From Escherichia phage PECP14, in the sequence record OQ870555.1: a stretch of DNA of 64,000 nucleotides; one strand, written 5' to 3'. The translations under genes and the position numbers were made by a program. This document shows positions 27,613 through 45,762 of this stretch, one piece after another. The notes under the pieces are model-generated. The model searched no databases, had not been told where the DNA came from, and worked only from the letters and a program-made list of their open reading frames with translations. Position 1 is the first letter of the stretch. Every line of letters starts with the position of its first letter.

Positions 27613-27996
27613 TAATTTAAAAGACTAGTAAATCGGTAGACGAAAGCCCAAGCATCTTACCTCGCAGCAGCGGTTGAAATACGAGGTTAAATAAGACCGC
27701 TGACCATACTATAAAGTATAATCTATTGGAGATTATGTTTATTACATCAGACATTTAATCTGACACGTAAAAACAAAAGGTCGTTGGTAGTACCAACACA
27801 ACTTCAAAGATCAACGCTCAAGTATGAAAGCTGAAAAGTTAAAAGCACTCAAACTTCTAACCTTCTAAAGCTAAAAGATGCAAAGTATTCGTTGATGATT
27901 CAAACCCTAGATCAAAGGTACATGGCTCATAAGATATGGCCTGTGGCGCCTCTAGGCTGTTTATCGGTTTACTAGTCTCTCAATTTAAAAATGTAT

Positions 27997-28025: not shown

Positions 28026-28055
28026 ATATTTTTAAATTGATGAGACGAGGCTATT

Positions 28056-29517: not shown

Positions 29518-29518
29518 T

Positions 29519-29547
29519 TTGCTAAACGCTTCAAAATTCTGTATAAT
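29519..29547 (+). promoter_or_regulatory. early promoter cassette driving a non-coding region
   Basis: TTGCTA-17-TATAAT; no ORF downstream until tRNA-Arg at 30382. Confidence 0.55.
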
Positions 29548-29569
29548 AGATTCATAAATTAGAGAACAG

Positions 29570-30381
29570 CGAGCCGATTACGCTGAGTGAGTTTAGTGAT
29601 TCCTAATAGGATAGCTATTCCACTGAATAGAGTCGGTGAGTTGGAGACTAGTAAGTACTCTGAGAGAGGCTACGAGCTAACGCTTATTGCTATTGATAGG
29701 GAACTGAAAATCTGCGGAAAACTCGGGAGCTGTCCCGAAATCTCGTAAACTCTTCTCTAGTTTATGTTAGTGGGGTGTCGAACTGACTTATGTGATAACA
29801 CTGCCAGATGCTCACAGGCTGACATTGAGCTTTACTGCTCCTTCTGGAAAGAATCGGATAACTCGGGCTTATACCGGATAAGCATTCGCTGCTGGAGTAC
29901 ATACTATGACGGTTCAGGAGGTACGCCACCTGATCAGTATTAGGTTAGAATCGAAACAGCTAAACCACGAGGAAACCTGACGGCCTCAACCAAACTCGGA
30001 ACTCGGGATCACTGCCTAGTGTGTACCCCGTTTAACCTGAGACTAGGCATCCAGCTTCGCATCGAAAATCGGAGGTGCGATTCTAACAGACCGCGTAACT
30101 ATGAGAGTGGGAAACGCTGACATGAGAGATGTCACTAATGGTGCCCAATAGTACAGGTAATTCGCGATAATTCCTGTTGAGCGGCAGCAGTAGGCTGGGA
30201 GTCATGACCTAAGCCTAACCGAGTTCTTCACATACGGAGAACATAACCACAAAGTCACCCTGACTTAAACTGGAAGATATTGTCTGACGGAAGGGCTGCA
30301 GAGCTTAATCTGAGGGGGCTGACCCTACCTACCGTCGGGTATCTTTAAGAGCTTTTATAAGAGTTCTTAAAAATACCTAAA
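29570..30381 (+). ncRNA. candidate long structured non-coding RNA / leader co-transcribed with tRNA-Arg
   Basis: ~810 bp downstream of an early promoter with no ORF of 60 aa or more on either strand; visibly GC-richer than flanking coding DNA. Confidence 0.35.
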
Positions 30382-30456
30382 CGGGGTGTAGTCTAAGGGA
30401 TAGGCAGGAGTCTTCTAAATTCCTTTATGCAGGTTCGAATCCTGTCACCTCGGCCA
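30382..30456 (+). tRNA. tRNA-Arg(TCT)
   Basis: hand-folded cloverleaf; AC loop CTTCTAA; T-arm GCAGG-TTCGAAT-CCTGT; CCA encoded. Confidence 0.6.
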
Positions 30457-30694
30457 ATTTTATTAACTGCTAGGAAAATAAAGTGAAAACACGATATATA
30501 GTAAAAGTAGTAGGTGAACATTCACAAGTAAATACCACCGATGTTACAGCGCTAGCATTTGAAGTAGTCTCCGGTATAGTCATATTTCATAACGGAGATA
30601 TCAAAGCTCCTGAATTTGCTGTGGATGCTAGCCTGTTTATTTCTGCAACTAAAGTAACTGTAGTAGCTAACTCTTCTAAATAATAAGGAAATAT

Positions 30695-31639
30695 ATGTTT
30701 ACTAAAAACACTAAAGAACTGACTTCCGATCAAAAAGTAATTCGTACTATTAAACGTTGGGGTGTTGGTGCTGTAGTTGGTCTTGGCGCTCTTATTCTGG
30801 CTCTCAATTCCTATACAGTTGTTCAGGACGGTACGGTTAAAACTCAGACTTTCCTGGGTAAAGTTAGTCCTAATCCTGTATTGCCGGGGTTCCATATTGT
30901 CAACCCATTCGCCTCTTTTGATACTTTTAGTACGAAAGATATTTCTATGAAACTGGATAAACTTCAGGTTCCTAGCCAGGATAAGTTTAAGTCTACAGTT
31001 GACATTACCGTTATGTTGCAGTTTGATGGTGCTAAAGCTCCTATGAACCGTGTTAACGCAGGTACTCAGGATCAAGCTCTGAACAAGTACGTTGAAGAGA
31101 AGATGCTGTCTACGATTCGTGAGTTTGGTAAGTCTGTACCAAAAGCACAAGATCTGTTCGACGCTAAGATTCAGGCTCAACTGCAAACCGCTATTCAGCA
31201 AGAAGTAGAAGAGTATGCGCGTCCTTATGGTTACACCGTTAAGCAAGTATTCCTTCAGGATATTACTCTGCCACCGGTAATCATGGAACAGGTACAGAAC
31301 ACCAAAGTTCGTGAAGAACAAGTTAACGCTGCAAAAGCTGAACTGGCTCGTGTTGAACAAGAAGCACAGCAGAAAGTTAAGCAAGCTGAGGCAGATCGTT
31401 CCGCTCGTGAAAACATGGCAGTAGCTAACGAACGTGACGCAGATGCTAAACTGTACGCAGCTAAGAAAGAAGCTGAAGCTAACGCCGCTCTGCAACGTAC
31501 CATTACTCCTGAAATGATTCGTTGGAAGCAGCTGGAAGTTGAAATGCTTCGTGCTGAAAAATACCAAGGGGGTGTACCACAGACTGTTGTCGGTACTGGC
31601 TACGATGGTCAAATGATCATGGATATGCGTAACAAGTAA
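30695..31639 (+). CDS. SPFH/band-7 (prohibitin/HflK-like) membrane protein
   Basis: N-terminal TM helix, SPFH core, long Ala/Glu/Gln coiled-coil tail; two terminators downstream. Confidence 0.65.
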   Translation: MFTKNTKELTSDQKVIRTIKRWGVGAVVGLGALILALNSYTVVQDGTVKTQTFLGKVSPNPVLPGFHIVNPFASFDTFSTKDISMKLDKLQVPSQDKFKSTVDITVMLQFDGAKAPMNRVNAGTQDQALNKYVEEKMLSTIREFGKSVPKAQDLFDAKIQAQLQTAIQQEVEEYARPYGYTVKQVFLQDITLPPVIMEQVQNTKVREEQVNAAKAELARVEQEAQQKVKQAEADRSARENMAVANERDADAKLYAAKKEAEANAALQRTITPEMIRWKQLEVEMLRAEKYQGGVPQTVVGTGYDGQMIMDMRNK

Positions 31640-31662
31640 TAGTTACACGTAATCTTCGAACC

Positions 31663-31698
31663 AAGCCCGCGTTTCCTTCGAGAGCGCGGGCTTTTCTG
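31663..31698 (+). terminator. intrinsic terminator after SPFH gene
   Basis: AGCCCGCG...CGCGGGCT stem + TTTTCTG. Confidence 0.6.
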
Positions 31699-31714
31699 TA
31701 TTTAAGGCAAAAGA

Positions 31715-31754
31715 AAAAGCCCCTTACCTTTCGGCAGGGGCTTTTGTTTTTTGG
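31715..31754 (+). terminator. second, possibly bidirectional terminator
   Basis: AAAAAGCCCCT...AGGGGCTTTTGTTTTTT at the convergence point of plus and minus genes. Confidence 0.6.
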
Positions 31755-31959
31755 TTTAGAACCATACTCTCTTGTTACAACAACCACTCATACGGGAGAC
31801 CAATCTTGACTGAAAATCTACTCTAGGGGGCAGGATAAGAGTAGGCTTAAAGGCAAACGGATTGAACACCGGTATTTGTGTAAACATTGCTGGAGAGCAA
31901 CAACGTGCTACAGGTATTGGGCAGCACGAAACAGATTTTCTGCAACACATAATTCCTCC

Positions 31960-32376
31960 TTAGGAGTTATTACCGCCATTTTGAGCTTTTGCAACTTGGC
32001 TTTGGCAGAAGCTATTAAACTTACCCATAAGTGCTACAAGCTGTTTCCCATCCTCTGTCTTTGCGAAGTCTTCGAAAAGGGCTAGTACTGCCTGTCCTTC
32101 CGCAGAAACCTGCGGTTGTTGGGTTTGTTGCTGAACTTGCTGCTGAGGCACCTGTTGCTGCATTTGTTGAGGCATTTGCGACTGCCCGCTCATTTGCTGC
32201 ATCATTTGCATAGGACTCACACTTCCAGGGTTTTGCTGGAGTTGCTGCTGCATCTGTTGCGCTTCTGCTAAACGCTGTTGCAACTGTTGTAGGTAAGGGT
32301 TATCCAGACCCGGAATGGGCTGCTGAGAGCCCATTGGTTGATTAAATCCGTTGTTCACAAAACCATATTTACTCAT
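31960..32376 (-). CDS. glutamine-rich low-complexity protein
   Basis: over 30% Gln with poly-Q(M/P) tracts; convergent with neighbouring plus-strand genes. Confidence 0.45.
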   Translation of the reverse strand: MSKYGFVNNGFNQPMGSQQPIPGLDNPYLQQLQQRLAEAQQMQQQLQQNPGSVSPMQMMQQMSGQSQMPQQMQQQVPQQQVQQQTQQPQVSAEGQAVLALFEDFAKTEDGKQLVALMGKFNSFCQSQVAKAQNGGNNS

Positions 32377-32398
32377 AATGGGCTCCTCCCCTTAAAGA

Positions 32399-33400
32399 TT
32401 AGGCTGGTACTTTAGCCTGTAGAGCTGCTAGAGTCTGAGTAATTGCACCCAGGCTTACAGCGATTTGATTGATTACCTGACCGTTTGCACCGCTACCTGC
32501 AGCGATTGCTTCACGCAGACGGCATTCATTCAGTTCGTCTTGGATACGCGCAGTAGTTACACCAGCAATCGCAGTCTGAAGTTCGCAGCAGCACTCAGCA
32601 AGCTGACGTTCGATAGCGTTCTGGTTAGCACACATCTGAGCCTGAACAGCGGCAAACTGGTTGTTAGTCTGAAGAGACTGCTGGAAAGCAATCTGGGCAG
32701 AGTCAAACTTGTCTTGTGCACGAGCGATCTGGTTAGCAGCGAAAGCTTGATCCATCTGGCGAGAAAGATCGAACTGACCCTGAATAACGTTACGAGTTTC
32801 CTGACAGATCTGGTTGGACAGGTTAGCACCAGTACCATACACAGTAGTCAGAATCTGTTGAGTGCTAGAAGCTTGAGCAGCACCTACACCATTAACAGCG
32901 CTCAGAACAGCACCAGTACCTTGATTCGCTTCGGTACGAGCAGTGTTGATTGCAGCTAGAATACTTGCAGTATCCTGGTTAGATAGGATAGCATCCACAG
33001 CAGTTCCCTCAGCGGCAACACCAGCACCACGTCCGAAACCACCGAAACCACCGAATCCGCCTGTTAATAGAGCACCAATCAGGATAGCTCCGAATAGACC
33101 CATACCTTCACCGCCGAAAGCACCATTTGCTACTGCTGGGTAACCACCCATCAGACCTGGGAAGCCGCTAGTGAATACGTTTACTGGTTCTTGCATTTTA
33201 TGTTTCCTATGTTTATGACAGCCCTCATGGTCGTCATCTTCATCATCTTCATCGTCATCATCGTGATCACGATGTTTCTTTTCGTAGGCCTTGACCTTCT
33301 CCCACTTATGTTTGTCTGATTCCTCATGACGTCTCAGTTCTGCTGCGACTTCACTGACGGTCTCAGGTTTCTTAGTTGCTTCTTCTGTCATTTTTGACAC
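32399..33400 (-). CDS. hypothetical protein: acidic/His-rich N-term, Gly-zipper segment, Ala/Gln-rich domain
   Basis: DDDDEDDEDDDHEGCHKHRKHK then GGFGGFGGFGRG; TTGACA-type promoter and AGGAGGTG SD upstream. Confidence 0.5.
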   Translation of the reverse strand: MSKMTEEATKKPETVSEVAAELRRHEESDKHKWEKVKAYEKKHRDHDDDDEDDEDDDHEGCHKHRKHKMQEPVNVFTSGFPGLMGGYPAVANGAFGGEGMGLFGAILIGALLTGGFGGFGGFGRGAGVAAEGTAVDAILSNQDTASILAAINTARTEANQGTGAVLSAVNGVGAAQASSTQQILTTVYGTGANLSNQICQETRNVIQGQFDLSRQMDQAFAANQIARAQDKFDSAQIAFQQSLQTNNQFAAVQAQMCANQNAIERQLAECCCELQTAIAGVTTARIQDELNECRLREAIAAGSGANGQVINQIAVSLGAITQTLAALQAKVPA

Positions 33401-33459
33401 CTCCTAGTATATAGAAAATGTGTGTCTCTTTGATCACTCATCTATAACATATACTTTAC

Positions 33460-33500
33460 ACTACCCCAGCGAAAATGTCAAGGGGTCTTTAAAAATTGCC
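33460..33500 (-). promoter_or_regulatory. leftward sigma70-like promoter for the convergent module
   Basis: minus strand CCTTGACATTTT...TAAAGT, then TAGGAGGTG SD before 33400 ATG; coordinates approximate. Confidence 0.4.
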
Positions 33501-33597
33501 CCCGGATTTTTAGTGGGATAACAATTTCTGGACCTCACCACTCACCTGCTACCCTTAAGTGCCCTGCGATTTTCCACTAAAAAGTTTAAAAATTCGA

Positions 33598-33626
33598 TTG
33601 CTTGAATGCTAAATTCTCTGTATAAT
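33598..33626 (+). promoter_or_regulatory. early promoter cassette
   Basis: TTGCTT-17-TATAAT + TTATAAATTTGAGAGAGGAA. Confidence 0.55.
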
Positions 33627-33656
33627 ATATTTATAAATTTGAGAGAGGAATCAAAT

Positions 33657-34712
33657 ATGATTAAGACTGGTCTAGTAATTGGTAAGTTCGCACCATTAAC
33701 GCGTGGTCATATTAACCTAATAAACACAGCAGCAACTATGTGTGAACGAGTTATTGTTGTAGTTAGTCATGATAATCGTTGGCTGGATAAGCAGAACACA
33801 CGTGATCAGGAAGTATTACAGTTAAAGAATCGACTTCGTTGGTTAGAACAAACTTACGCGGATATTGAGCACGTTTCGGTAGAGTACATTATTGAAGATG
33901 ATATTCCTGAATATCCGAATGGTTGGCCGGAATATGCTAGAATCCTTAATGAAAATTATGGACATTTGCCTGAGATCACCATTTTCTCTAGCGAACTAGA
34001 CTATGATGCAGAATATAAGAAATATCTGCCGAAGTTTGGTCATTATATTGTAGATTCTGATCGGACTCGTGTTCCAATCTCAGCTACAATGATTCGTAAT
34101 GATCTTATGAAGTATTGGGAGTTTCTTCCTAGCGTAGTTCGTAAAGATTACGTGCGTAAGGTTGTAATCATTGGGACTGAAAGCTCAGGCAAAACAACTT
34201 TAACAAAGTACCTTGCGAAATTATATAATACTTCGTGGGTAGAAGAATATGGTCGTACTTACTGCGAAGTTGATCTAGTTGGTAATGAAGAACTCCTGAC
34301 TAGCGAGGACTATAATAAAATTGCATTCAGGCACAAAGAGCTAGAGTTTGAGGCAGAACGTACTGCAAATAAGATCATGTTTGTAGACACAAATGCTTTC
34401 ATTACAGAGTTTTATCACAGACTTTACGAGCATCGTAAAAATCCGGTTGTAACAGCTATTGCTAAAGAAGAGCATTATGATTTAGTTATAGTTTTAGCAC
34501 CTACTGTTAAGTGGGTAGATGATGGTTTACGTATTAACTCCGATCGTTCAATTACTTCTGAACTGTTCGAGCAGATGAAGAAAGAATTTCCTAATCAGTT
34601 TCCAGAAGGGCGTACTGTATATATTGACTCCCCGGACTATAAGGTTCGTATGGACGAAGCAGTAAACGCAGTAGACTGGCTGATTCATCACTTTAACGTT
34701 GGAGAGTTTTAA
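33657..34712 (+). CDS. NadR-like NMN adenylyltransferase / ribosylnicotinamide kinase
   Basis: GKFAPLTRGH (HxGH nucleotidyltransferase) and GTESSGKTTL (Walker A kinase). Confidence 0.65.
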   Translation: MIKTGLVIGKFAPLTRGHINLINTAATMCERVIVVVSHDNRWLDKQNTRDQEVLQLKNRLRWLEQTYADIEHVSVEYIIEDDIPEYPNGWPEYARILNENYGHLPEITIFSSELDYDAEYKKYLPKFGHYIVDSDRTRVPISATMIRNDLMKYWEFLPSVVRKDYVRKVVIIGTESSGKTTLTKYLAKLYNTSWVEEYGRTYCEVDLVGNEELLTSEDYNKIAFRHKELEFEAERTANKIMFVDTNAFITEFYHRLYEHRKNPVVTAIAKEEHYDLVIVLAPTVKWVDDGLRINSDRSITSELFEQMKKEFPNQFPEGRTVYIDSPDYKVRMDEAVNAVDWLIHHFNVGEF

Positions 34713-34713
34713 T

Positions 34714-35391
34714 ATGACTAACTATCTTGTAAATGACTTTAAAAACTGGAAACCTTTGGAATATCTGTGGCTGTTTATAGCAGTCGCCTTTATTAGTTTA
34801 GCTAACTATAATGGTACAGCTCTAGATTGGGCTACTGCAATAACCAACGTGGTTTGTGTTATTCTGGTTGCAAAAGGACGTGTTTCCAACTATATTTGGG
34901 GCTTAGTTGGTGTTCTTACCTATGGTATTACAGCTTTAAACGCAGATCTTTATGGTAACGCTGCACTAAACCTGCTATACTACGTTCCTATGCAGTTTTA
35001 TGGAATGTACTTATGGCATAAAAATAAGCCAAGTAATCTGCCAGATGTTCCAACTAAGGTTCTGACTAAAGCCCAAGCTCTGCTGACTCTAGGGATTCTA
35101 GCAGTAGCCACGTTAGGGTATGGTAGTTTCTTAGCTACTACGGCTGATCCATTCCCAATGTTGGATGCATTTACTGCGGTAGGTAGTGTGATCGCTATGT
35201 GGCTTATGGTTAAGCAGTATGCCGAGCAGTGGCTGATCTGGATTGCTATTAACATTGGTACTGTATATATTTGGCTTGTAACTGCCCAGTCTACGGGTGC
35301 TTCTTATGCAATCCTAGCAATGTGGCTGGTGTTCTTAGGTAACTCTATTATGGGAGCCTATAAAGGCTACTTTGTAAGAGTTAACAAATAA
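34714..35391 (+). CDS. pnuC: PnuC-like nicotinamide riboside transporter
   Basis: polytopic membrane protein with PnuC-like W/Y-rich helices; directly follows NadR-like gene. Confidence 0.6.
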   Translation: MTNYLVNDFKNWKPLEYLWLFIAVAFISLANYNGTALDWATAITNVVCVILVAKGRVSNYIWGLVGVLTYGITALNADLYGNAALNLLYYVPMQFYGMYLWHKNKPSNLPDVPTKVLTKAQALLTLGILAVATLGYGSFLATTADPFPMLDAFTAVGSVIAMWLMVKQYAEQWLIWIAINIGTVYIWLVTAQSTGASYAILAMWLVFLGNSIMGAYKGYFVRVNK

Positions 35392-35396
35392 AGTAG

Positions 35397-35425
35397 TTAT
35401 AGCCCTCTAAGCGAGGGCTATTATA
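35397..35425 (+). terminator. hairpin terminator after pnuC
   Basis: ATAGCCCTC-TAAGC-GAGGGCTAT. Confidence 0.5.
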
Positions 35426-35438
35426 CAGAAATTTTCAC

Positions 35439-35467
35439 TTGCTTTATATAGAAAATTTCTGTATAAT
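35439..35467 (+). promoter_or_regulatory. early promoter cassette
   Basis: TTGCTT-17-TATAAT; near-identical leader to the 33598 copy. Confidence 0.55.
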
Positions 35468-35497
35468 ATATTTATAAATTTGAGAGAGGAATCAAAC

Positions 35498-35794
35498 ATG
35501 AAACACATTGTACTTGCATTGACTCTAGTATCTACTTCTGTATTTGCTGCTCCACAACAGGAACTTTGTCAAGTTCAAGTTTGTAATAAGCTAGAACGAT
35601 TTACTCTAGACATTTGGTCGCACATTAAAGATAATATGGGTGAACAGTGTTTTGATATTGTTCTGCCAAAAGAACAAGCTGTTCCTGGGGCTGTTCTCAG
35701 CTCAGAATCACGTTGGTGGCAGGGTTCTTCTATCAACCCAACTAAGAAGTCAGTGACACGTATCAAACAAGTATATCAGTGCAATGTTCAGTAA
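35498..35794 (+). CDS. small secreted Cys-containing protein
   Basis: signal peptide MKHIVLALTLVSTSVFAAP. Confidence 0.45.
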   Translation: MKHIVLALTLVSTSVFAAPQQELCQVQVCNKLERFTLDIWSHIKDNMGEQCFDIVLPKEQAVPGAVLSSESRWWQGSSINPTKKSVTRIKQVYQCNVQ

Positions 35795-35802
35795 AATTTC
35801 AC

Positions 35803-35831
35803 TTGCTTAATGCCGAAATTTTCTGTATAAT
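35803..35831 (+). promoter_or_regulatory. early promoter cassette preceding tRNA-Ser
   Basis: TTGCTT-17-TATAAT. Confidence 0.55.
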
Positions 35832-35845
35832 ATATTCATAAATTC

Positions 35846-35939
35846 GGAAGATTAACCCTAAAGGTAAGGGAGCTGTTTGCTAAACAGCCAGTAGCTGTGG
35901 AGACACGGTGTGCCAGTTCGAATCTGGCATCTTCCTCCA
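35846..35939 (+). tRNA. tRNA-Ser(GCT)
   Basis: acceptor GGAAGAT/ATCTTCC; AC loop TTGCTAA; long variable arm; follows promoter. Confidence 0.7.
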
Positions 35940-35944
35940 AATTT

Positions 35945-36022
35945 GGTTCTCAAGCTCATTTGGTATGAGCCGTCGCCTCATAAGCGAAAGGTAGGTAGGT
36001 TCGAATCCTCCGGGAGCCACCA
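35945..36022 (+). tRNA. tRNA-Met/Ile2(CAT)
   Basis: D-stem GCTC/GAGC; AC loop CTCATAA; T-loop TTCGAAT; CCA encoded. Confidence 0.55.
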
Positions 36023-36039
36023 ATTAACTAGGAGACTAT

Positions 36040-36225
36040 ATGTCTAGATTCTATGAAATGAAGAAAGCATTAGAAGAATGTCGGTGTAAGGATTGTCATG
36101 GTGGTGGTAGGCAGGATGATGCAGAACCTGGGGATATTTTCTGTAGAGAATGGGAATGTCCTACATGTAAAGGTACTGGTATCAACCCTGAATATGCAAT
36201 TTGTCTAGACATTGAGCGAGGCTAA
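36040..36225 (+). CDS. small Cys-rich (zinc-ribbon-like) protein
   Basis: CRCKDC...CREWECPTC. Confidence 0.4.
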   Translation: MSRFYEMKKALEECRCKDCHGGGRQDDAEPGDIFCREWECPTCKGTGINPEYAICLDIERG

Positions 36226-36565
36226 GATGGATATTTTTACTACTCCGGCAATAAACCTTTTAGGTGTTGGCTTGTTCCAAGCTACGGTGTATCGTACTGA
36301 TGATTCTACTGATGTGGTAACGTTCATCGTACCTGAGTTCTTCCTAGAAAAGTTCTTTGAAGAGTTTGAGCAGTTCCGTGAAGAACACAATGCTCATTCC
36401 GATATGGAAGATCTAGCAGCTATGTTCCCTGTGGTTTACGGCTATATCTTTGAAGGTAATGGCCTAGATCTTAATAAATCTGAACTCGTTGAACTTAATT
36501 GGGGCATCAATTTTGAAGTTGGCTCTCCATTCCCTCGATATTTCCAGGGTTTAGAGATTCGCTAA
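36212..36565 (+). CDS. hypothetical protein
   Basis: ORF. Confidence 0.45.
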   Translation: MSEAKMDIFTTPAINLLGVGLFQATVYRTDDSTDVVTFIVPEFFLEKFFEEFEQFREEHNAHSDMEDLAAMFPVVYGYIFEGNGLDLNKSELVELNWGINFEVGSPFPRYFQGLEIR

Positions 36566-36573
36566 GATTACAT

Positions 36574-36650
36574 GGGGGTGTAATCGAATTGGCATAGGTA
36601 CTGGACTTAAAATTCAGGTTTTGTGGGTTCGAATCCCACCACCCCTACCA
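36574..36650 (+). tRNA. tRNA, anticodon TAA (isotype uncertain)
   Basis: acceptor GGGGGTG/CACCCCT; T-arm GTGGG-TTCGAAT-CCCAC; AC loop CTTAAAA with short variable loop. Confidence 0.5.
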
Positions 36651-36665
36651 AATTAAGGAAATAAA

Positions 36666-36788
36666 ATGAAAGCTATTAAGAAAGCACTACGTAAATTTAT
36701 GTACTGTCGTTTTCATAGCATCAAGACTTCAACTAATGGTACGACTTATGATCGCTATGATCCTAAGTTTGGCTTACATTCTAAATAA
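36666..36788 (+). CDS. small hypothetical protein
   Basis: 40-codon ORF with AAGGAAA SD after a tRNA. Confidence 0.3.
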   Translation: MKAIKKALRKFMYCRFHSIKTSTNGTTYDRYDPKFGLHSK

Positions 36789-36801
36789 CTGGAGATAATA
36801 A

Positions 36802-37008
36802 ATGGCTAATCCTGAAATTACTGCACAGCGCTTTATGCTGAAAGGTATTATTGCTGAAGCAGGCATGACAGAAGAAGTTGCAGATTTTCAAAAGCAGTTC
36901 CTAAATATTCTCACTCAAGCCAAAGAGCTAGGAGAGAAAGAACATGGCGCGGCTATTATGGCAATCACATTGGTTGGGCTTGATCTGGCAGAAGAATCAG
37001 GAGTTTAA
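36802..37008 (+). CDS. hypothetical protein
   Basis: ORF. Confidence 0.4.
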   Translation: MANPEITAQRFMLKGIIAEAGMTEEVADFQKQFLNILTQAKELGEKEHGAAIMAITLVGLDLAEESGV

Positions 37009-37038
37009 CTCCTCCAAGCAGAAATTTTAAAAATGTAC

Positions 37039-37068
37039 TTGCTTTTTACTTAAGATTTCTGCTATAAT
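37039..37068 (+). promoter_or_regulatory. early promoter cassette
   Basis: TTGCTT-18-TATAAT. Confidence 0.5.
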
Positions 37069-37098
37069 AGTTATATAAATTGATGAAGGAGTTAACGA

Positions 37099-37374
37099 AT
37101 GTCAAAACGTGTTACTGCAACTGGTGTTGAAAGTGCTGTTTGTAAATCCTGGGGTGGCTGGGAAGGTGAGATTGAATGGCTTTATTTCTACGATGTAGAA
37201 CTTCTGCCGGAAGTCAAAGCTAAATGTGTGGAAGCTGGTATGGCTCCTGATGCAAAGGCTGATATCGAAATCACCATGACTAAGCTAGAAGGTCGTGTAA
37301 TTACGCTCAATGATGATTATGAAGAAGTGTTCGAGCTTCCATTCAAACTGAGTGTCACCCCTAGCTTCGAGTAA
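37099..37374 (+). CDS. hypothetical protein
   Basis: promoter cassette + AAGGAG SD. Confidence 0.45.
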   Translation: MSKRVTATGVESAVCKSWGGWEGEIEWLYFYDVELLPEVKAKCVEAGMAPDAKADIEITMTKLEGRVITLNDDYEEVFELPFKLSVTPSFE

Positions 37375-37410
37375 CTGATATAGCACTGAGCAAGTTCTTT
37401 AAAATTTGAC

Positions 37411-37439
37411 TTGCTCAGTCCTTCAAAACTTGATATAAT
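37411..37439 (+). promoter_or_regulatory. early promoter preceding tRNA cluster
   Basis: TTGACTTGCTC / TATAAT. Confidence 0.5.
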
Positions 37440-37503
37440 AGTTATCTAATTTGGAAAACATATTTAAAAGTGTTTAAACTAGTATTTGAATATTTCTAAA
37501 TAT

Positions 37504-37594
37504 GTTGGATTAGTATCGTAGAGGTAGCGAAGCAGACTGTAAATCTGCCGACTCGGAAGGGTCTCGGGTGGTTCGACTCCATCATCCAACACCA
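37504..37594 (+). tRNA. tRNA-Tyr(GTA)
   Basis: AC arm GCAGA-CTGTAAA-TCTGC; long variable arm. Confidence 0.6.
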
Positions 37595-37601
37595 AATTTA
37601 A

Positions 37602-37678
37602 GTCCTGTTAGACAAACTGGTAAAGTCACTACCCTTTCAAGGTAGGATTTGCGGGTTCGATCCCCGCACAGGACGCCA
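37602..37678 (+). tRNA. tRNA-Glu(TTC)
   Basis: acceptor GTCCTGT/ACAGGAC; AC loop CTTTCAA; T-arm GCGGG-TTCGATC-CCCGC. Confidence 0.7.
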
Positions 37679-37687
37679 AATTCTGCA

Positions 37688-37763
37688 TTCCTAGAGTGTT
37701 ACTGGACAGCATGTCGGTCTCCAAAACCGTACGGTCTAGGTTCGAGTCCTAGTAGGTTTGCCA
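37688..37763 (+). tRNA. tRNA-like, anticodon CCA (Trp?), non-canonical acceptor
   Basis: AC arm TCGGT-CTCCAAA-ACCGT and T-arm CTAGG-TTCGAGT-CCTAG are good but acceptor stem does not pair. Confidence 0.35.
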
Positions 37764-37769
37764 ATATTT

Positions 37770-37844
37770 GCACCTTTAGCTGAGATGGATTAGCGCTTGC
37801 CTGAAGAGCTTGAGAGGTTGGATCGTTACCAACGGGGTGCACCA
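37770..37844 (+). tRNA. tRNA-Phe(GAA)
   Basis: acceptor GCACCTT/GGGGTGC; AC loop CTGAAGA; T-arm GTTGG-ATCGTTA-CCAAC (atypical loop). Confidence 0.5.
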
Positions 37845-37846
37845 AT

Positions 37847-38134
37847 TTGAAGGAGATGCTGATGCATCCTGAAAACTTCTTTATTTACTGTGCGGATAAG
37901 TCACTGAAACGCAGAATTAACAAAGTCTATCATTATCGTGCTAGTCAACAGCCTTATGTTTATGCTTTTGATGGAGAAACCATTCCACTAGAGCAGTTGG
38001 CTTGTGATTACATGGTATTGAAGAACTTTGATGAGACAAAGATCTCAAGCGTTCATAATCGACAGAACCCATTAACGTGGAAGTATAAGAAGAAAAAGAA
38101 AGGCATCATATTTCTGAAAAATGTAGTTGCTTAA
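37847..38134 (+). CDS. hypothetical protein
   Basis: ORF after tRNA cluster. Confidence 0.4.
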   Translation: MKEMLMHPENFFIYCADKSLKRRINKVYHYRASQQPYVYAFDGETIPLEQLACDYMVLKNFDETKISSVHNRQNPLTWKYKKKKKGIIFLKNVVA

Positions 38135-38155
38135 CCGCTTAAAGTTCTGTATAAT
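38127..38155 (+). promoter_or_regulatory. early promoter cassette
   Basis: TTGCTT-17-TATAAT. Confidence 0.5.
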
Positions 38156-38184
38156 TATTACATAAATTGAACTGGAGAAGCAAC

Positions 38185-38409
38185 ATGACAGAACAAGAAT
38201 TGAAAGAACGTAAGCTGGTAATGCTTCGCTTACTAAACATTTTCTCTGGTATGGATGGTGGTATTGACTTCGTTAATCTACGTTGCTTTGTAGAAGAAGC
38301 AGAAGGTGAGGCTATCACTAGGATTCTTAAACATATGGGTTTGTTATTAGATGTTGCTAATGTGGCTACTCAATATAAGCTCGAAGATTTACCGGAGCGT
38401 GTTAAATGA
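38185..38409 (+). CDS. hypothetical protein
   Basis: promoter cassette + GGAGA SD. Confidence 0.4.
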   Translation: MTEQELKERKLVMLRLLNIFSGMDGGIDFVNLRCFVEEAEGEAITRILKHMGLLLDVANVATQYKLEDLPERVK

Positions 38410-38597
38410 AAATGTTAGTTAAATTTAAGTGTTGTGGTTCTGAACATATTTTCACTCGTTATAGAGAGTTTAAGATGTGTGAGTGTGGTAAGTCAGGCTA
38501 TGATGCTGGAGATGGCTATTATGCTAGATCTATAGGACATTATAAAGATCTAGAGTTTACTAATCTCGAAAAGCAAGATAAATCGACCGTTGGCTGA
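38406..38597 (+). CDS. small Cys-containing protein
   Basis: ORF overlapping previous stop. Confidence 0.4.
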   Translation: MKMLVKFKCCGSEHIFTRYREFKMCECGKSGYDAGDGYYARSIGHYKDLEFTNLEKQDKSTVG

Positions 38598-38659
38598 ATG
38601 GCTTAGGCGGAGGCCTGCAAAACCTCCTTATGTGAGTTCGAATCTCATGCGGTCGTCCA
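38584..38659 (+). tRNA. tRNA-Cys(GCA)
   Basis: acceptor CGACCGT/GCGGTCG; AC loop CTGCAAA; T-loop TTCGAAT. Confidence 0.6.
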
Positions 38660-38749: not shown

Positions 38750-38852
38750 TATTCTGTGTAGAGTTAAGTAAACCGGTAGCCAACCAGCTATCATTACTGA
38801 TATCGAATTCAGTCACAGATACCATTTTTCATTAACAACTGAGGAAATAGAT

Positions 38853-39408: not shown

Positions 39409-39611
39409 AACAAATAGAGTAAAGGCTACAGTAGGTGCACCCTTACGGACTGCTACACCGGACTCTATTCATTAACAAACATTCTAGCGTGGTGGAGAGG
39501 GGACACCAGCTTGCCGAGGGTAGAAGCTCGTTCGATTCGAGTGAAAGAATGGTTCTCGTAAATCCGCACAAGTGATAGCAGGTTCAAGTCCTGCCTAGAT
39601 TGACTTATTAT
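39409..39611 (+). other. degenerate tRNA-like elements
   Basis: two T-arm-like hairpins (CTCG-TTCGATT-CGAG; GCAGG-TTCAAGT-CCTGC) with no complete cloverleaf. Confidence 0.3.
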
Positions 39612-39685: not shown

Positions 39686-39933
39686 AATTTAGGTTTCTGC
39701 TTCCTAGAGAACGAACTCCTAGATAAACAAGGTGATGAGTTTCCGGCCGGTTCTAGTCGCTGAAAATCCTCCCGACCAGGTAGGTGTAAGTAAACGAAAG
39801 TTTACTTATTAAGTAAGTCCGACACATCGGCGGGTGTGTTCTAGTACTTAAAGAAGGTCTAGCAAACTTTCTCGCTAGCATGAGTTGATAGCTCGGTGAC
39901 TTACCTAATAAGTAAATTTATTAAAAAATGTAG

Positions 39934-40891: not shown

Positions 40892-40965
40892 GCTCGGTTA
40901 GTTTAATGGGAGAACCCCGTCTTTACACGGCGGTTGCGATAGTTCGATTCTATCACCGAGTACCA
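40892..40965 (+). tRNA. tRNA-Val(TAC)
   Basis: AC arm CCGTC-TTTACAC-GGCGG; T-arm GATAG-TTCGATT-CTATC. Confidence 0.65.
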
Positions 40966-40990
40966 ATTAACTCAAAATAAGGAATTGCAA

Positions 40991-41344
40991 ATGCAATTAT
41001 CAAGCAAGGTTCAAGGCTATTTCGGACATGTAACAATGGAGTTCGCTATCTCTAAAGGTTGGGACTTCGAACAAGATTTAGCTGAGTTCTACAAAGATAT
41101 TGATCTGAACGTACCGTACATGGGACTCTCAACTGGTCAAGAGATCACAGAAGCCGACGTGTTCAAGGCAAGTCAAGGTGAGGTAACACCTAGTTTTGCC
41201 GAGTTCTGGTTAGGTATCACACTGAAAGAAGATGCACCGGATAGTGGAGTACTAATGACTAGTATGCACTCTGGAAGCTCTGATTACCTTTTCGTTAGTG
41301 ACGTTAAGGAAATACAAGAAATCTGCAAAAATGTACTTGCTTGA
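40991..41344 (+). CDS. hypothetical protein
   Basis: ORF after tRNA-Val. Confidence 0.45.
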   Translation: MQLSSKVQGYFGHVTMEFAISKGWDFEQDLAEFYKDIDLNVPYMGLSTGQEITEADVFKASQGEVTPSFAEFWLGITLKEDAPDSGVLMTSMHSGSSDYLFVSDVKEIQEICKNVLA

Positions 41345-41365
41345 TGCTTAATTTCTTGTTATAAT
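41337..41365 (+). promoter_or_regulatory. early promoter driving a non-coding stretch
   Basis: TTGCTT-17-TATAAT; next ORF starts 360 bp downstream. Confidence 0.5.
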
Positions 41366-41725
41366 ATTTATATAAATTGATGTGAAAATAGCTGCCTAGA
41401 TATTAGGTGTATGACGTCTACACTAGCAGAGCTACCGAAAAAAGAGATCCTCAGGATAAACGCCGTAGCAAAATTAGTCTGATATCCATCAATTTAGTTC
41501 ACTAAGGTATTAGCTCGACCTAGGACTGGCTGCCAAAAAGCACGGTTGCAATTAGACCCATAATGGCGGGGGATACTTTGCAAGAAGTTCTAGATTAGTC
41601 CACTAGATTCAGCGGCAACTGAATAGTGTATCGGGTTTGTGGAGAGCGGTTATCCTCTACTGGCTAATGTCTGAGGGTAATACGCACACCGAGCTAATAG
41701 CCTTAGTAAACTAGAAGGAATATCT
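41366..41725 (+). ncRNA. candidate promoter-driven non-coding RNA
   Basis: 360 bp with no ORF after the promoter at 41337-41365; GC-rich. Confidence 0.3.
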
Positions 41726-41989
41726 ATGTTTGATCTTAAAGATATGGCTAAGAAACTAATGTCGCAACGTTATCAACAAAGAACCCTCCATAAACGAGTT
41801 TCCGATATGAAGAAACGTTGCAATAATGCTAAGTATTATAATAGTCTTAATAAACTATCTGATATAGATCTTGCTAAAACTGAAGCAATATATAATCACT
41901 TAGTAGTAGAATCTGATATAGTGAATAAAGATATTGCTAGGCTAGAAGCTCAGATTGTAGCAACTGTTCTCGATATGTATAGAGAATAA
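41726..41989 (+). CDS. hypothetical protein
   Basis: ORF. Confidence 0.45.
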   Translation: MFDLKDMAKKLMSQRYQQRTLHKRVSDMKKRCNNAKYYNSLNKLSDIDLAKTEAIYNHLVVESDIVNKDIARLEAQIVATVLDMYRE

Positions 41990-43069: not shown

Positions 43070-43388
43070 ATAATTCTTGAAGTATGCCGGAATCGGTAGA
43101 CGGGGCTTCCTAAAGGGCGTAAGGGGAACATCCACTCCTCATAAGATACCCGAAAACGAGGCTGAGATAAATGGTCTATCTCGTGAAGGTTCAAGTCCTT
43201 CTGCTTCTTGATACATCAATGGCTCAAAGAGTAACGGTGCACCTTTCTAGAGAATTTCCTGGGCGAGAATCCAGGTGTAATCAACTAGTTGTTAGTGTGA
43301 TGAGTTTCGGAGAGCCGCCACAATTGAAGTCTTTAGAATGGGTATCGCCCTTTAGCCCCTCCGAAAGGGATAACTAGAGATTTCAATT

Positions 43389-43465
43389 GTGGCTATATCA
43401 TAATTGGTTAATGATCCTGATTGTGAATCAGGCCTATGTGGATTCGAATTCCACTAGCCACCCCA
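43389..43465 (+). tRNA. tRNA-His(GTG)
   Basis: AC arm CCTGA-TTGTGAA-TCAGG; T-arm GTGGA-TTCGAAT-TCCAC. Confidence 0.7.
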
Positions 43466-45021: not shown

Positions 45022-45393
45022 CTAAACAGAGGATCAGGTCATTGTACCAGATCCTGCTGAGAAGAGAGTCCACATTCTATAAATGCCCGGGCGTGACAGC
45101 AGGAAGTAGACTGCAACTCCATGCTATCCAGGAGTATAAATGTAGAAGCTAGGACTTTAGATAGACATTGTCTTAGCGTGAGCAATCACGTAGTTGCAAC
45201 AGACCTGGAAGATCGCAACGTTAAAATCAAAGTTCCAGTGCTTATTTATCTAATCGAGACCATCAATCTCACCGGAATGCTAGCACCCCAACAGTAGCTA
45301 GTGATTAGATAATAAGCAAGCCTGCCTTCCAGTTTTTATCTTGCTTCTGGGTTAACAAAAAGCTGAGCCAAATTCTAACATCAGGGAGATCTA
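45022..45393 (+). ncRNA. candidate non-coding RNA downstream of tRNA cluster
   Basis: 370 bp ORF-poor GC-rich stretch between the last tRNA and the grcA-like gene. Confidence 0.25.
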
Positions 45394-45762
45394 ATGAAAG
45401 CATATCAAAGTCTTAAGTCTGGCGTAATTAACATTGTTCATAACAATCAGATCATTCAACTATATTCTAAAGATGGTGAACTTAAACAGAAAGTTCTAGT
45501 CGAAGATCTAGAAGGTATCACACCTCACTTTGACCCTGAGGCCTTTCGCATTGTAGATGTGGAAGTGGTTCCTCAAGTCGAGGGTGGTCAGCACCTAAAT
45601 GTCAATGTGTTAAGCCGTGATCAGCTTTTGGATGCACAGAAACATCCTGAAAAATATCCTCAGTTGACCATCCGTGTCTCTGGCTATGCTGTTCGATTTA
45701 ACGCATTGACGCGTGAACAACAGAACGACGTTATTAGTCGTACATTTACTCAGGCGATATAA
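45394..45762 (+). CDS. grcA: autonomous glycyl-radical cofactor (GrcA/YfiD-like)
   Basis: C-terminus [35 protein letters not shown] (glycyl-radical motif RVSGY). Confidence 0.75.

What the first reader, a model, noticed from the sequence alone, without database searches (positions are those of the whole stretch)
41337..41725. Further promoter-fed non-coding GC-rich islands inside the tRNA region
Several 200-400 bp stretches lack ORFs and are GC-richer than coding DNA: 41366-41725 (directly after a promoter), 45022-45393, 43070-43388, 27613-27985 and 39686-39930. Several contain long inverted repeats, e.g. GCCACAATTGAAG / TTTCAATTGTGGC in 43305-43395. They may be stable RNAs of unknown function.
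Basis: seen in the sequence. Interest (0 to 1): 0.6.

Follow-up and report, generated by a model that had tools for sequence, protein, structure and literature searches.

The report
Phage T5 "RNA2H" stable RNA gene
The ORF-free stretch is a promoter plus the gene for a small, intricately folded RNA already annotated in phage T5 as "RNA2H, stable RNA of unknown function"; it is real and conserved across the T5 phage family, but it is not a new discovery and its job is still unknown.

Summary
The window is a T5-like Salmonella/E. coli phage (Epseptimavirus). 41337-41365 is the ortholog of T5 early promoter P13b. 41496-41712 is the ortholog of T5/BF23 "rna2H: stable RNA with unknown functions". 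No Rfam family, tRNA or ORF matches it. Comparative analysis gives a defined fold. A 22-bp closing stem P1 carries a conserved bulge. Inside it are helices P2-P6 and two loop-to-strand pseudoknots. A covariance model finds the RNA in at least six Demerecviridae lineages, and 40 of 54 pairs covary. The ends annotated in T5 lie inside P1 with a 2-bp 3' stagger, which suggests excision by RNase III from a promoter-RNA-ORF-tRNA transcript; this is an inference. Published T5 deletion mutants that lack the gene are viable, so it is accessory. Its function remains unknown.

The other listed islands are also structured RNAs:
- 43070-43388 is T5 RNA1, RNAI and RNAIII.
- 39686-39930 contains RNAIV.
- 45023-45393 and 27622-27979 are conserved, covarying elements that T5 records do not annotate.

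"GC-rich" holds only weakly. Interest is moderate to low.

The parts
41337..41365 (+). Early promoter, ortholog of T5 'promoter P13b': -35 TTGCTT 41337-41342, 17-nt spacer, -10 TATAAT 41360-41365. The start site is inferred at about 41372.
   Evidence: Sequence. 91% identical over 67 nt to the T5 P13b feature. Nearly invariant in relatives including T5 and BF23; the two substitutions lie outside the hexamers. Not listed by the generic scan because the -35 matches 3 of 6.
41373..41496 (+). 5' leader hairpin P0 (arms 41373-41382 / 41487-41496, 10 of 10 complementary) enclosing an optional 104-nt insertion (41383-41486, two predicted hairpins).
   Evidence: Arms found. The insertion is absent in T5, BF23 and vB_EcoS-26175I, where the same stem closes a loop of roughly 10 nt. 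It is present in both Epseptimavirus and Tequintavirus members. Folded alone it is not unusually stable, z = -1.2.
41496..41712 (+). RNA2H-family core (217 nt): P1-closed, six-helix fold with two pseudoknots.
   Evidence: Homology to T5/BF23 rna2H. Covariance model R1 scores 215.5 bits, a single copy in the window. z = -3.7. Covariation.
41496..41517 (+). P1 5' arm. It pairs with 41690-41712. There is a C.A mismatch at 41500/41708.
   Evidence: 17 of 22 pairs covary in the 12-sequence alignment.
41690..41712 (+). P1 3' arm with a bulged G at 41700. The bulge is kept in all lineages and is A in the Aeromonas phage.
41508..41702 (+). Predicted mature RNA (about 195 nt), obtained by transferring the T5-annotated ends of rna2H. 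These ends leave a 2-bp-staggered 3' overhang inside P1.
   Evidence: The T5 feature is 6514-6685 of L005, against P1 at 6502-6695. RNase III cleavage is inferred, not shown.
41523..41527 (+). PK1 5' strand GGACU. It pairs with the P4 loop AGUCC at 41597-41601.
   Evidence: 100% paired in 31 sequences, and 4 of 5 pairs change on both sides. The lineage versions are GGACU/AGUCC, GAGUC/GACUC, GAGCC/GGCUC, GAACC/GGUUC, GAACC/GGUUU and GAGUC/GGCUC. The pseudoknots were not part of the model that made the alignment.
41531..41535 (+). PK2 5' strand UGCCA. It pairs with the P5 loop (C)GGCA at 41613-41617.
   Evidence: Versions are UGCC/GGCA, ACCA/UGGU, UACCA/UGGUA, UGCCA/UGGCG and, read from the sequence, UUGC/GCAA in My1. 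In the automatic count only one pair of PK2 changes on both sides, and the CM alignment scores the My1 row as unpaired at three positions. Support is weaker than for PK1.
41540..41543 (+). P2 5' strand GCAC. It pairs with GUGU at 41626-41629 and encloses P3, P4 and P5.
   Evidence: GCAC/GUGU, ACAC/GUGU, and AAGA/UCUU in the Providencia phage. Recovered de novo by RNAalifold.
41545..41584 (+). P3, a variable hairpin. Its base (UUGC/GCAA) is conserved and its interior is exchanged between phages in at least six versions.
   Evidence: All 5 base pairs covary.
41589..41607 (+). P4 hairpin (UCUAG/CUAGA, 9-nt loop carrying the PK1 partner).
   Evidence: The stem becomes UCUGA/UCAGA, CGGAG/CUCCG, GUGAG/CUCAC, UUCCG/CGGAA, GCUGG/CCAG(U) and CUGGA/UCCAG. 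5 of 5 pairs covary.
41608..41623 (+). P5 hairpin (UUCAG/CUGAA, 6-nt loop carrying the PK2 partner), abutting P4.
   Evidence: The stem becomes ACGC/GCGU, CUGAC/GUCAG, AGGG/CCCU and ACUCU/AGAGU. 5 of 5 pairs covary.
41624..41638 (+). J5/6, a conserved joining strand UAGUGUAUCGGGUUU. Its first part forms the P2 3' strand.
   Evidence: Nearly invariant in Markadamsvirinae and Sugarlandvirus.
41639..41689 (+). P6, a variable domain (version A: irregular hairpin with loop UGGCUAAU). T5 carries an unrelated version B, closed by the same 3 bp.
   Evidence: The closing pair changes U-A / C-G / A-U. Interior pairs covary in RNAalifold.
41726..41989 (+). Downstream 87-aa ORF (Shine-Dalgarno AGAAGGAA at 41713-41720), followed by two tRNA-Ala genes. 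It is probably co-transcribed. It is absent in T5 and in phage 1-23.
   Evidence: No terminator-like site lies between 41366 and 42160.
43076..43220 (+). Ortholog of T5 RNA1 (tRNA-like stable RNA).
   Evidence: 81-82% identity over 144 nt to T5/BF23 rna1.
43221..43320 (+). Ortholog of T5 RNAI (5' GGCUC... ...GAGCCGCCA 3'). Its interior has diverged.
43317..43393 (+). RNAIII ortholog (about 43325-43387) inside a 20-nt-armed stem. The stem overlaps the CCA end of RNAI and the 5' end of tRNA-His.
39798..39919 (+). RNAIV ortholog (about 39811-39907) bracketed by a 22-nt stem that is 91% complementary.
45023..45393 (+). A further multi-hairpin RNA-like element. It is absent from T5 and present in about 148 phage records. 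It overlaps a 58-aa ORF at 45121-45297.
   Evidence: z = -2.8. Several helices are kept by paired changes against L026/L250, with indels of 3, 1 and 8 nt. The ORF is intact in 6 homologs but shows no third-position bias.
27622..27979 (+). A structured element of about 355 nt, 3' of the T5.085-like gene, closed by a stem of about 20 bp with G.U pairs in the sense strand. It is unannotated in T5.
   Evidence: z = -5.1. At least 93% conserved in 437 records. Unannotated in T5. Divergent homologs in 'Salmonella phage 41' and My1 keep the stem with different sequence.

Best explanation
41337-41725 is a promoter plus a non-coding RNA gene. It is the Epseptimavirus ortholog of phage T5 'RNA2H'.

Proposed mechanism:
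- Host RNA polymerase starts at about 41372 from a T5-type early promoter (the P13b ortholog).
- The transcript begins with a leader hairpin, P0. In this phage P0 carries an optional 104-nt insertion.
- It continues through the 217-nt RNA2H core and most likely runs on into the 87-aa ORF and the two tRNA-Ala genes.
- The core folds into a compact body. The 5' and 3' ends form a 22-bp stem (P1) with a conserved bulge. Inside it, P2 closes a junction of three hairpins (P3, P4, P5), and a variable domain P6 follows.
- The single strand between P1 and P2 pairs with the loops of the abutting hairpins P4 and P5, giving two pseudoknots.
- P3 and P6 are peripheral modules that are exchanged between phages. 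P1, P2, P4, P5 and both pseudoknots are kept throughout the Demerecviridae.

Inferred steps:
- P1 is cut on both strands by host RNase III, as in rRNA precursors. This would release a stable RNA of about 195 nt (about 41508-41702) and separate it from the downstream mRNA/tRNA precursor.
- The released RNA acts in trans as an accessory factor, most plausibly by binding a protein or RNA of the translation/tRNA conflict zone in which it is embedded.

Confidence by step: shown by sequence, homology and covariation, about 0.95. RNase III excision, about 0.5. A trans-acting binding or decoy role, about 0.25.
For: Identity:
- The window is 98.8% identical to Salmonella phage STK8t, an Epseptimavirus.
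- The core matches T5 AY543070 31808-31979 'rna2H: stable RNA with unknown functions' and BF23 rna2H, at the same position: after promoter P13b and before tRNA-Ala.

Non-coding:
- No ORF above 32 aa.
- Unannotated in four close relatives.
- No tRNA call and no Rfam hit even at E <= 10 on 401 nt.

Structure:
- On a MAFFT alignment of 35 sequences, 93.4% of cells pair. 19 pairs change on both sides, against 10.2 +/- 1.9 in shuffles (0 of 500) and 1-3 when the partners are slid.
- Covariance model R1 finds homologs that nhmmer missed: Providencia phage PSTCR5 at 63 bits, an IMG/VR phage at 94 bits, Aeromonas phage TS3 at 56 bits and Pectobacterium phage My1 at 51 bits.
- In 12 diverse sequences, 93.2% of cells pair against 70.8% in shuffles. 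40 of 54 pairs covary, against 10-17 when slid.
- PK1, which was not in the model, is 100% paired with 4 of 5 pairs covarying. The lineage-specific versions are listed.
- RNAalifold recovers P1-P6 de novo.
- Whole-hairpin replacement occurs at P3 and P6.

Processing:
- The T5-annotated ends of rna2H and rnaIII both lie inside long perfect stems and leave 2-nt (2-bp) 3' overhangs.
- No terminator-like site precedes the tRNA-Ala genes.

Accessory status:
- T5Mos (deletion 30661-38625) and T5-123 (deletion 29191-32442) lack rna2H and grow (PMC11464382).

Phage-specific:
- No match in 5,426 E. coli genomes.
- No true match in 185,579 bacterial species genomes by a family-specific pattern.
Against: - There are no transcript data for this phage. 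The label 'stable RNA' rests on the T5/BF23 GenBank annotation, and its primary papers are not in the searchable library.
- RNase III cleavage is inferred only from the position of the annotated ends, and I do not know how those ends were determined.
- No functional partner is conserved next to the gene. The flanking ORFs here are absent in T5.
- The gene is dispensable in the laboratory.
- The PARIS paper reports rescue only for the fragment carrying tRNA-Pro/fMet/Lys/Val and attributes it to tRNA-Lys. That gives no sign that these RNAs counter PARIS.
- PK2 rests on few covarying positions.
- The CM-built alignments lean toward the nested helices.
- The single-sequence MFE predicts a different pairing in the P4/P5 region.
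Confidence: 0.8

Rival explanations
1. It is a purely cis-acting leader and processing module. The fold exists only to give the P13b transcript a protected 5' end and an RNase III entry site upstream of the ORF and tRNAs. The excised RNA is a by-product with no trans function.
For: It always lies at the head of a transcription unit or immediately 5' of a tRNA or small ORF. The long P1 stem is bracketed like rRNA spacers. It is dispensable. The same bracketing recurs around RNAIII, RNAIV and the 27.6-kb element.
Against: A processing stem needs only P1. Two pseudoknots, P2, P4 and P5, and a 15-nt joining strand that is nearly invariant in Markadamsvirinae and Sugarlandvirus, are conserved well beyond that need, the helices and pseudoknots in at least six lineages. 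T5 annotators list it as a stable, accumulating species.
Confidence: 0.25
2. It is a riboswitch-like sensor or a self-cleaving ribozyme of a class not yet described. The double-pseudoknot core binds a ligand or catalyses its own excision.
For: The fold is compact, pseudoknotted and closed by P1. It has conserved joining strands and variable peripheral hairpins, as in aptamers and small ribozymes. It lies next to tRNAs, where phage ribozymes are often found (my own knowledge, not tested here).
Against: No expression platform or terminator follows. The downstream element differs between lineages: ORF, tRNA-Ala, tRNA-Leu or tRNA-Tyr. There is no Rfam ribozyme or riboswitch hit at E <= 10. The annotated ends fit a protein dsRNase better than an internal cleavage site.
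Confidence: 0.08
3. It is a DNA-level element: a miniature inverted-repeat cassette, a recombination or homing target, or a replication signal. Its terminal inverted repeats are the P1 arms.
For: 22-bp inverted repeats flank a cassette of 170-195 bp. Modules are swapped mosaic-fashion between phages. Homing endonuclease genes populate the T5 tRNA region.
Against: G.U pairs are valid only in the sense-strand RNA, for example P2 G.U in 25 of 31 sequences and P1 wobbles. The asymmetric bulge is conserved. Loop-to-strand covariation (PK1, PK2) has no meaning for a cruciform. The window holds a single copy. The element has a fixed syntenic position and no target duplications.
Confidence: 0.03
4. 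It is a decayed protein-coding gene or a degenerate tRNA.
For: Small ORFs and tRNA-like RNAs (RNA1, RNA2, RNA3) are common in this region. A few records annotate a 'hypothetical protein' over it.
Against: There is no ORF above 32 aa. Indels are not in multiples of three, and hairpins are swapped as whole units. Substitutions are paired across helices. ARAGORN and the Rfam tRNA model give nothing.
Confidence: 0.02

Closest known systems
Phage T5 / BF23 'RNA2H' (misc_RNA rna2H, GenBank AY543070 31808-31979; NC_042564 4056-4227)
   Same: The sequence is homologous, with conserved blocks identical or nearly so. The position is the same, after promoter P13b and before tRNA-Ala. The fold is the same.
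   Different: Hairpin P3 and domain P6 are replaced by unrelated versions. This phage has a 104-nt insertion in the leader hairpin, and small ORFs on both sides that T5 lacks.
The other T5 stable RNAs (RNAI, RNAIII, RNAIV; tRNA-like RNA1, RNA2, RNA3) and, from memory, the two stable RNAs of the phage T4 tRNA cluster (species 1 and 2, rnaC/rnaD)
   Same: They are small RNAs encoded among phage tRNA genes on the same strand. Their function is unknown. They lie in a deletable region. Several are bracketed by long stems.
   Different: There is no sequence or structural similarity to RNA2H; R1 finds a single copy in the window. RNA1, RNA2 and RNA3 are tRNA-like and RNA2H is not. The T4 comparison was not tested here.
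RNase III processing stems of rRNA operons and phage T7 early transcripts
   Same: A long duplex is formed by the sequences flanking the product. The annotated ends are staggered by 2 bp with a 3' overhang.
   Different: The excised product is a small pseudoknotted RNA, not rRNA or mRNA. Cleavage has not been demonstrated for any member.
Large structured phage/prophage RNAs found beside tRNA genes (ROOL, GOLLD; Rfam families)
   Same: They are phage-borne, adjacent to tRNAs, have complex conserved folds and an unknown function (my own knowledge).
   Different: RNA2H is about 200 nt, against about 500-800 nt. No Rfam hit was found at any threshold used.
Double-pseudoknot aptamers and ribozymes (e.g. 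twister, HDV-like)
   Same: The architecture is compact, closed by P1, with two pseudoknots and variable peripheral stems.
   Different: No match to their covariance models. No cleavage site or expression platform can be identified.

Membership tests
T5 RNA2H stable RNA | Sequence homology to the annotated rna2H of T5/BF23 | tested here: met
   blastn gives 76% identity over 95% of the query, with long identical blocks. nhmmer and CM hits are full length.
T5 RNA2H stable RNA | Same genomic position and strand: downstream of promoter P13b, between tRNA-Val and tRNA-Ala | tested here: met
   The order here is tRNA-Val 40892-40965, P13b ortholog 41316-41382, the RNA, then tRNA-Ala 41999 and 42084. 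Two small ORFs are intercalated.
T5 RNA2H stable RNA | Shared secondary structure | tested here: met
   All helices and both pseudoknots can form in the window sequence. Family covariation is shown.
T5 RNA2H stable RNA | Accumulates as a discrete stable RNA in infected cells | not testable with these tools
   Only the GenBank note is available. No paper in the library describes it.
RNase III substrate | About 20 bp or more of near-perfect dsRNA formed by the flanks | tested here: met
   P1 has 21 pairs plus one mismatch and one bulge.
RNase III substrate | Cleavage on both strands leaving 2-nt 3' overhangs, dependent on rnc | not testable with these tools
   The T5-annotated ends are consistent with this, but how they were determined is unknown.
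tRNA / tRNA-like RNA | Cloverleaf with T-arm and acceptor stem, detectable by ARAGORN or Rfam RF00005 | tested here: not met
   No call between 40965 and 41999.
Any Rfam 15 family (riboswitch, ribozyme, 6S, Y RNA, tmRNA, RNase P, ROOL/GOLLD and others) | Score at or near the family's gathering threshold | tested here: not met
   Zero matches with E <= 10 on 41340-41740. None at gathering threshold.
Riboswitch / cis-regulatory leader | An expression platform (terminator or Shine-Dalgarno-sequestering helix) coupled to the aptamer, with a conserved regulated gene | tested here: not met
   No terminator-like site follows. The downstream element differs between lineages.
Protein-coding gene | A conserved ORF with codon-like substitution pattern | tested here: not met
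   The longest ORF is 32 aa and lies in the optional insertion. Indels and module swaps are seen.

The most novel reading that the evidence does not exclude
RNA2H may not be a processing by-product but a new class of compact double-pseudoknot RNA, conserved across the Demerecviridae, with a specific trans activity. That activity could be binding or decoying a host or defence factor of the tRNA/translation conflict, or catalysis. On this reading it belongs to a larger, mostly unannotated set of at least eight stem-bracketed structured RNAs in these phages, including the 27.6-kb and 45.0-kb elements. Together they would form an 'RNA island' that acts alongside the phage tRNAs.
Probability: 0.2. 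Interest if true: 0.7.

Novelty: already known. Interest (0 to 1): 0.35.

Why it matters
T5-like phages are currently the main model for how phage tRNA arrays defeat tRNA-cutting immune systems such as PARIS, retron Eco7, Schlafen and OLD. The stable RNAs interleaved with those tRNAs have carried the label 'unknown function' for decades. They are ignored by almost all of the roughly 430 deposited genomes that carry RNA2H, and sometimes mis-annotated as proteins.

This work produced three usable things:
- a testable secondary structure
- a covariance model
- the demonstration that the fold is conserved family-wide

With these, the RNA could be annotated and submitted to Rfam. Targeted mutants could also be designed, aimed at PK1, PK2 and the P1 cleavage site. 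This does not change the fact that the RNA's existence is already recorded in the T5 annotation.

Tried and rejected
- Rfam at gathering threshold and at E <= 10, on the whole tRNA region and on 401 nt: nothing in the island. Nothing meaningful for 27550-28050 either.
- ARAGORN: no tRNA or tmRNA in the island.
- The single-sequence MFE pairs CCUAGGAC with a stretch just upstream of and overlapping the P4 5' arm. The covariation (UCUAG/CUAGA to UCUGA/UCAGA, with the upstream strand unchanged) contradicts this, so I rejected it in favour of P4 plus PK1.
- A possible helix CAAA/UUUG extending P2 was rejected. A-to-C and A-to-G changes in L146, L147 and L026 are not compensated.
- nhmmer with the family alignment missed every homolog outside Markadamsvirinae and Sugarlandvirus.
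- Two short IMG/VR motif scans returned many chance hits.
- The family-specific pattern gave one chance hit in bacterial genomes and one in metagenomes, and neither scored with the model.
- blastn against E. coli genomes: no match.
- Literature searches for T5 stable RNAs, RNA2H or Ksenzenko/Shlyapnikov papers found no description of the RNA. They did find the deletion mutants.
- A resemblance of the J1/2 strand to RNase P CR-V, and of the P1 arms to a Shine-Dalgarno/anti-Shine-Dalgarno duplex, was considered from memory and dropped. Strand order differs, and the motif is not kept in the Providencia phage.
- Strand assignment of the 27.6-kb element from MFE alone failed because the antisense strand folds even better. 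Sense-strand G.U pairs in diverged homologs settle it.
- Flanking ORFs gave no informative partner.
Full report
**What the window is.** The 1.2 kb around the finding is 98.8% identical to Salmonella phage STK8t and 93-96% identical to many other Epseptimavirus genomes (Demerecviridae, T5-like phages). The window carries 28 tRNA genes, all on the + strand. Twenty-seven of them lie between 35.8 and 45.0 kb, which is the classical T5 'tRNA region'.

**Check of the observation.**
- Between the stop of a 119-aa ORF (40985-41344) and the ATG at 41726, the only ORF of at least 30 aa is a 32-aa GTG ORF.
- TTGCTT (41337-41342), a 17-nt spacer and TATAAT (41360-41365) lie directly upstream. This stretch is 91% identical to the feature annotated 'promoter P13b' in T5 and nearly invariant in relatives, the two T5/BF23 substitutions lying outside the hexamers. 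The generic promoter scan omits it only because its -35 hexamer matches 3 of 6 positions.
- 'GC-rich' is a weak description. The ORFs of the tRNA region have 0.376 +/- 0.037 and the tRNAs 0.513. The island 27613-27985 has 0.373 and is not GC-richer at all.
- The quoted inverted repeat is real: 43317-43336 / 43374-43393.
- 45022-45393 is not ORF-free. It holds a 58-aa ORF.

**Identity.**
- blastn of 41490-41720 finds 429 phage records.
- In T5 (AY543070) the match falls on 'rna2H: RNA2H, stable RNA with unknown functions'. In the BF23 tRNA-region record it falls on 'RNA 2H'.
- In both records the feature follows 'promoter P13b' and precedes tRNA-Ala, on the tRNA strand.
- Nearly all other records leave the stretch unannotated, and a few place a 'hypothetical protein' on it.
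- The object is therefore already recorded, although only as an annotation. No paper in the searchable library describes it, and Rfam 15 has no family for it.

**Anatomy.** Here i is the position within 41496-41712.
- A leader hairpin P0 (41373-41382 / 41487-41496) follows the inferred start site.
  - In this phage it encloses a 104-nt insertion. T5, BF23 and 26175I lack the insertion, and their P0 stem closes a small loop.
  - The insertion occurs in members of both Epseptimavirus and Tequintavirus. Folded alone it is not unusually stable.
- In the core, the 5' and 3' ends form P1 (i 1-22 / 195-217). P1 has 21 pairs, one C.A mismatch and a bulged G.
- Inside P1:
  - P2 (45-48 / 131-134) closes a junction of three hairpins.
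  - P3 (50-89) is one of the three. Its interior is variable.
  - P4 (94-112) is the second.
  - P5 (113-128) is the third and directly abuts P4.
  - A conserved joining strand J5/6 follows.
  - A variable domain P6 (144-194) follows J5/6.
- The strand between P1 and P2 pairs with the loop of P4 (PK1: 28-32 with 102-106) and with the loop of P5 (PK2: 36-39/40 with 118/119-122).

**Evidence that the fold is real.**
- Close relatives replace whole hairpins rather than mutate them.
  - P3 exists in at least six versions that share only the basal UUGC/GCAA.
  - P6 exists in two unrelated versions closed by the same three pairs.
- P4 changes from UCUAG/CUAGA to UCUGA/UCAGA within Epseptimavirus.
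- On a plain MAFFT alignment of 35 distinct sequences:
  - 93.4% of cells pair.
  - 19 pairs change on both sides, against 10.2 +/- 1.9 in shuffles (0 of 500) and 1-3 when partners are slid.
- A covariance model built from that alignment, without the pseudoknots, detects full-length homologs that nhmmer missed:

| Homolog | Lineage | Score |
|---|---|---|
| Providencia phage PSTCR5 | Priunavirus | 63 bits |
| 106-kb IMG/VR phage | unnamed | 94 bits |
| Aeromonas phage TS3 | Shenzhenvirus | 56 bits |
| Pectobacterium phage My1 | Mccorquodalevirinae | 51 bits |

- Klebsiella Sugarlandvirus members carry it too.
- Every helix is kept with different sequence. PK1, for example, reads GGACU/AGUCC, GAGUC/GACUC, GAGCC/GGCUC, GAACC/GGUUC, GAACC/GGUUU and GAGUC/GGCUC.
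- In 12 diverse sequences:
  - 93.2% of cells pair, against 70.8% in shuffles.
  - 40 of 54 pairs covary, against 10-17 when slid.
- RNAalifold recovers P1-P6 on its own.
- Caveats:
  - The CM-built alignments favour the nested helices.
  - PK2 rests on few varying positions.

**Processing (inference).**
- In T5 coordinates the annotated rna2H begins at the 13th nucleotide of the P1 5' arm. It ends three nucleotides past the partner of that first nucleotide: the bulged G plus two paired C. This is a 2-bp-staggered 3' overhang.
- The annotated rnaIII ends likewise sit in a long perfect stem and leave a 2-nt 3' overhang.
- This is the signature of RNase III, as in rRNA precursors. Transferred to the window, the mature RNA would be about 41508-41702.
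- No terminator-like site lies between the RNA and the tRNA-Ala genes. One transcript probably carries the RNA, the 87-aa ORF and the tRNAs.
- I could not find out how the T5 ends were determined, so this step has about even odds.

**Function.**
- Nothing in the tools reveals it.
- The RNA has no counterpart in 5,426 E. coli genomes.
- A family-specific pattern finds no true counterpart in 185,579 bacterial species genomes. Metagenome hits are all T5-like or Sugarland-like phages.
- No neighbouring protein is conserved with it.
- The viable T5 deletion mutants T5Mos and T5-123 lack it.
- The PARIS paper reports rescue only for the fragment with tRNA-Pro/fMet/Lys/Val, so nothing there points to these RNAs as the suppressor.
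- The extent of conservation goes beyond what a mere cleavage stem needs: two pseudoknots and three helices across at least six lineages, plus a joining strand nearly invariant in Markadamsvirinae and Sugarlandvirus. This leans me toward a trans-acting accessory RNA. A purely cis processing module remains a serious rival.
- Rejected alternatives:
  - A DNA-level cassette. Sense-strand G.U pairs, the asymmetric bulge and the loop-strand covariation all argue against it.
  - A decayed coding sequence.
  - A tRNA.

- *43070-43388.* This is the ortholog of T5 RNA1 (43076-43220), RNAI (43221-43320, ending GCCA) and RNAIII (about 43325-43387). It overlaps the 3' end of RNAI and the 5' end of tRNA-His.
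- *39686-39930.* It contains the RNAIV ortholog (about 39811-39907) inside a 22-nt-armed stem, upstream of the P13a promoter ortholog.
- *45023-45393.*
  - It is absent from T5 and present in about 148 records.
  - Several of its hairpins are kept by paired substitutions, and indels of 3, 1 and 8 nt occur.
  - A 58-aa ORF stays open in six homologs without third-position bias. A small protein or a dual role cannot be excluded.
- *27622-27979.*
  - It lies outside the tRNA region, 3' of the T5.085-like gene.
  - It folds far better than shuffles, z = -5.1.
  - It is at least 93% conserved in 437 records and unannotated in T5.
  - Its closing stem of about 20 bp is kept with different sequence and sense-strand G.U pairs in 'Salmonella phage 41' and in My1.
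- All of these share one design: a structured RNA bracketed by a long stem.

**Verdict.** The main object is the T5 RNA2H gene, known as an annotation for about two decades and, from my memory, from work of the 1980s. What is new here is a covariation-backed fold with two pseudoknots, its distribution across the Demerecviridae, and two further conserved structured elements that T5 records do not annotate. Novelty of the finding as given: already known. Interest: moderate to low (0.35). There is a modest chance (about 0.2) that these RNAs have a specific role in phage-host conflict, which would be considerably more interesting.

Noticed in passing
window 27622-27979: A structured element of about 355 nt (z = -5.1), 3' of the T5.085-like gene and just before the next promoter. 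It is at least 93% conserved in 437 phage records and unannotated in T5. Its closing stem of about 20 bp is kept by compensatory changes and sense-strand G.U pairs in 'Salmonella phage 41' (where a tRNA follows it) and in Pectobacterium phage My1. It has no Rfam match and may be an undescribed RNA family.
   Followed up: partly
window 28056-28373: The gene right after that element (T5.084 homolog) matches Pfam PF20274 cREC_REC, 'cyclic-phosphate processing receiver domain' (E = 1e-14). By its Pfam name this domain is tied to cyclic-phosphate (RNA-end) processing.
   Followed up: no
window 45023-45393 (ORF 45121-45297): A multi-hairpin element with many paired substitutions. It is absent from T5. 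It overlaps a 58-aa ORF that is intact in six homologs but lacks third-position bias. Its first ~60 nt recur in Klebsiella phages immediately 5' of their RNA1 homolog.
   Followed up: partly
window 41383-41486: An optional 104-nt insertion inside the leader hairpin of RNA2H. Its presence or absence is polymorphic and crosses genus boundaries (present in some Tequintavirus and some Epseptimavirus members). Its own role was not examined.
   Followed up: partly
window 37770-37841: Rfam tRNA hit (33.4 bits) that ARAGORN does not call. It lies where T5 has tRNA-Phe, so the window probably has 29 tRNA genes.
   Followed up: no
window 38752-38824, 39480-39605, 43076-43220: Orthologs of the T5 tRNA-like RNAs RNA3, RNA2 and RNA1. 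RNA1 and RNA2 have recognisable T-arms (GGTTCAAGTCC) but large insertions, and neither ARAGORN nor Rfam calls them tRNAs.
   Followed up: partly
L145:13214-13381 (Providencia phage PSTCR5); L200 upstream of 11186: In distant relatives the RNA2H homolog is preceded by further unannotated, hairpin-rich sequence rather than by an obvious T5-type promoter. A small hairpin directly abuts P1, as P0 does in T5.
   Followed up: no
window 45394-45762: A 122-aa protein with a glycyl-radical domain (PF01228, E = 4e-18), resembling a stand-alone glycyl-radical 'spare part' for pyruvate formate-lyase, at the end of the tRNA region.
   Followed up: no
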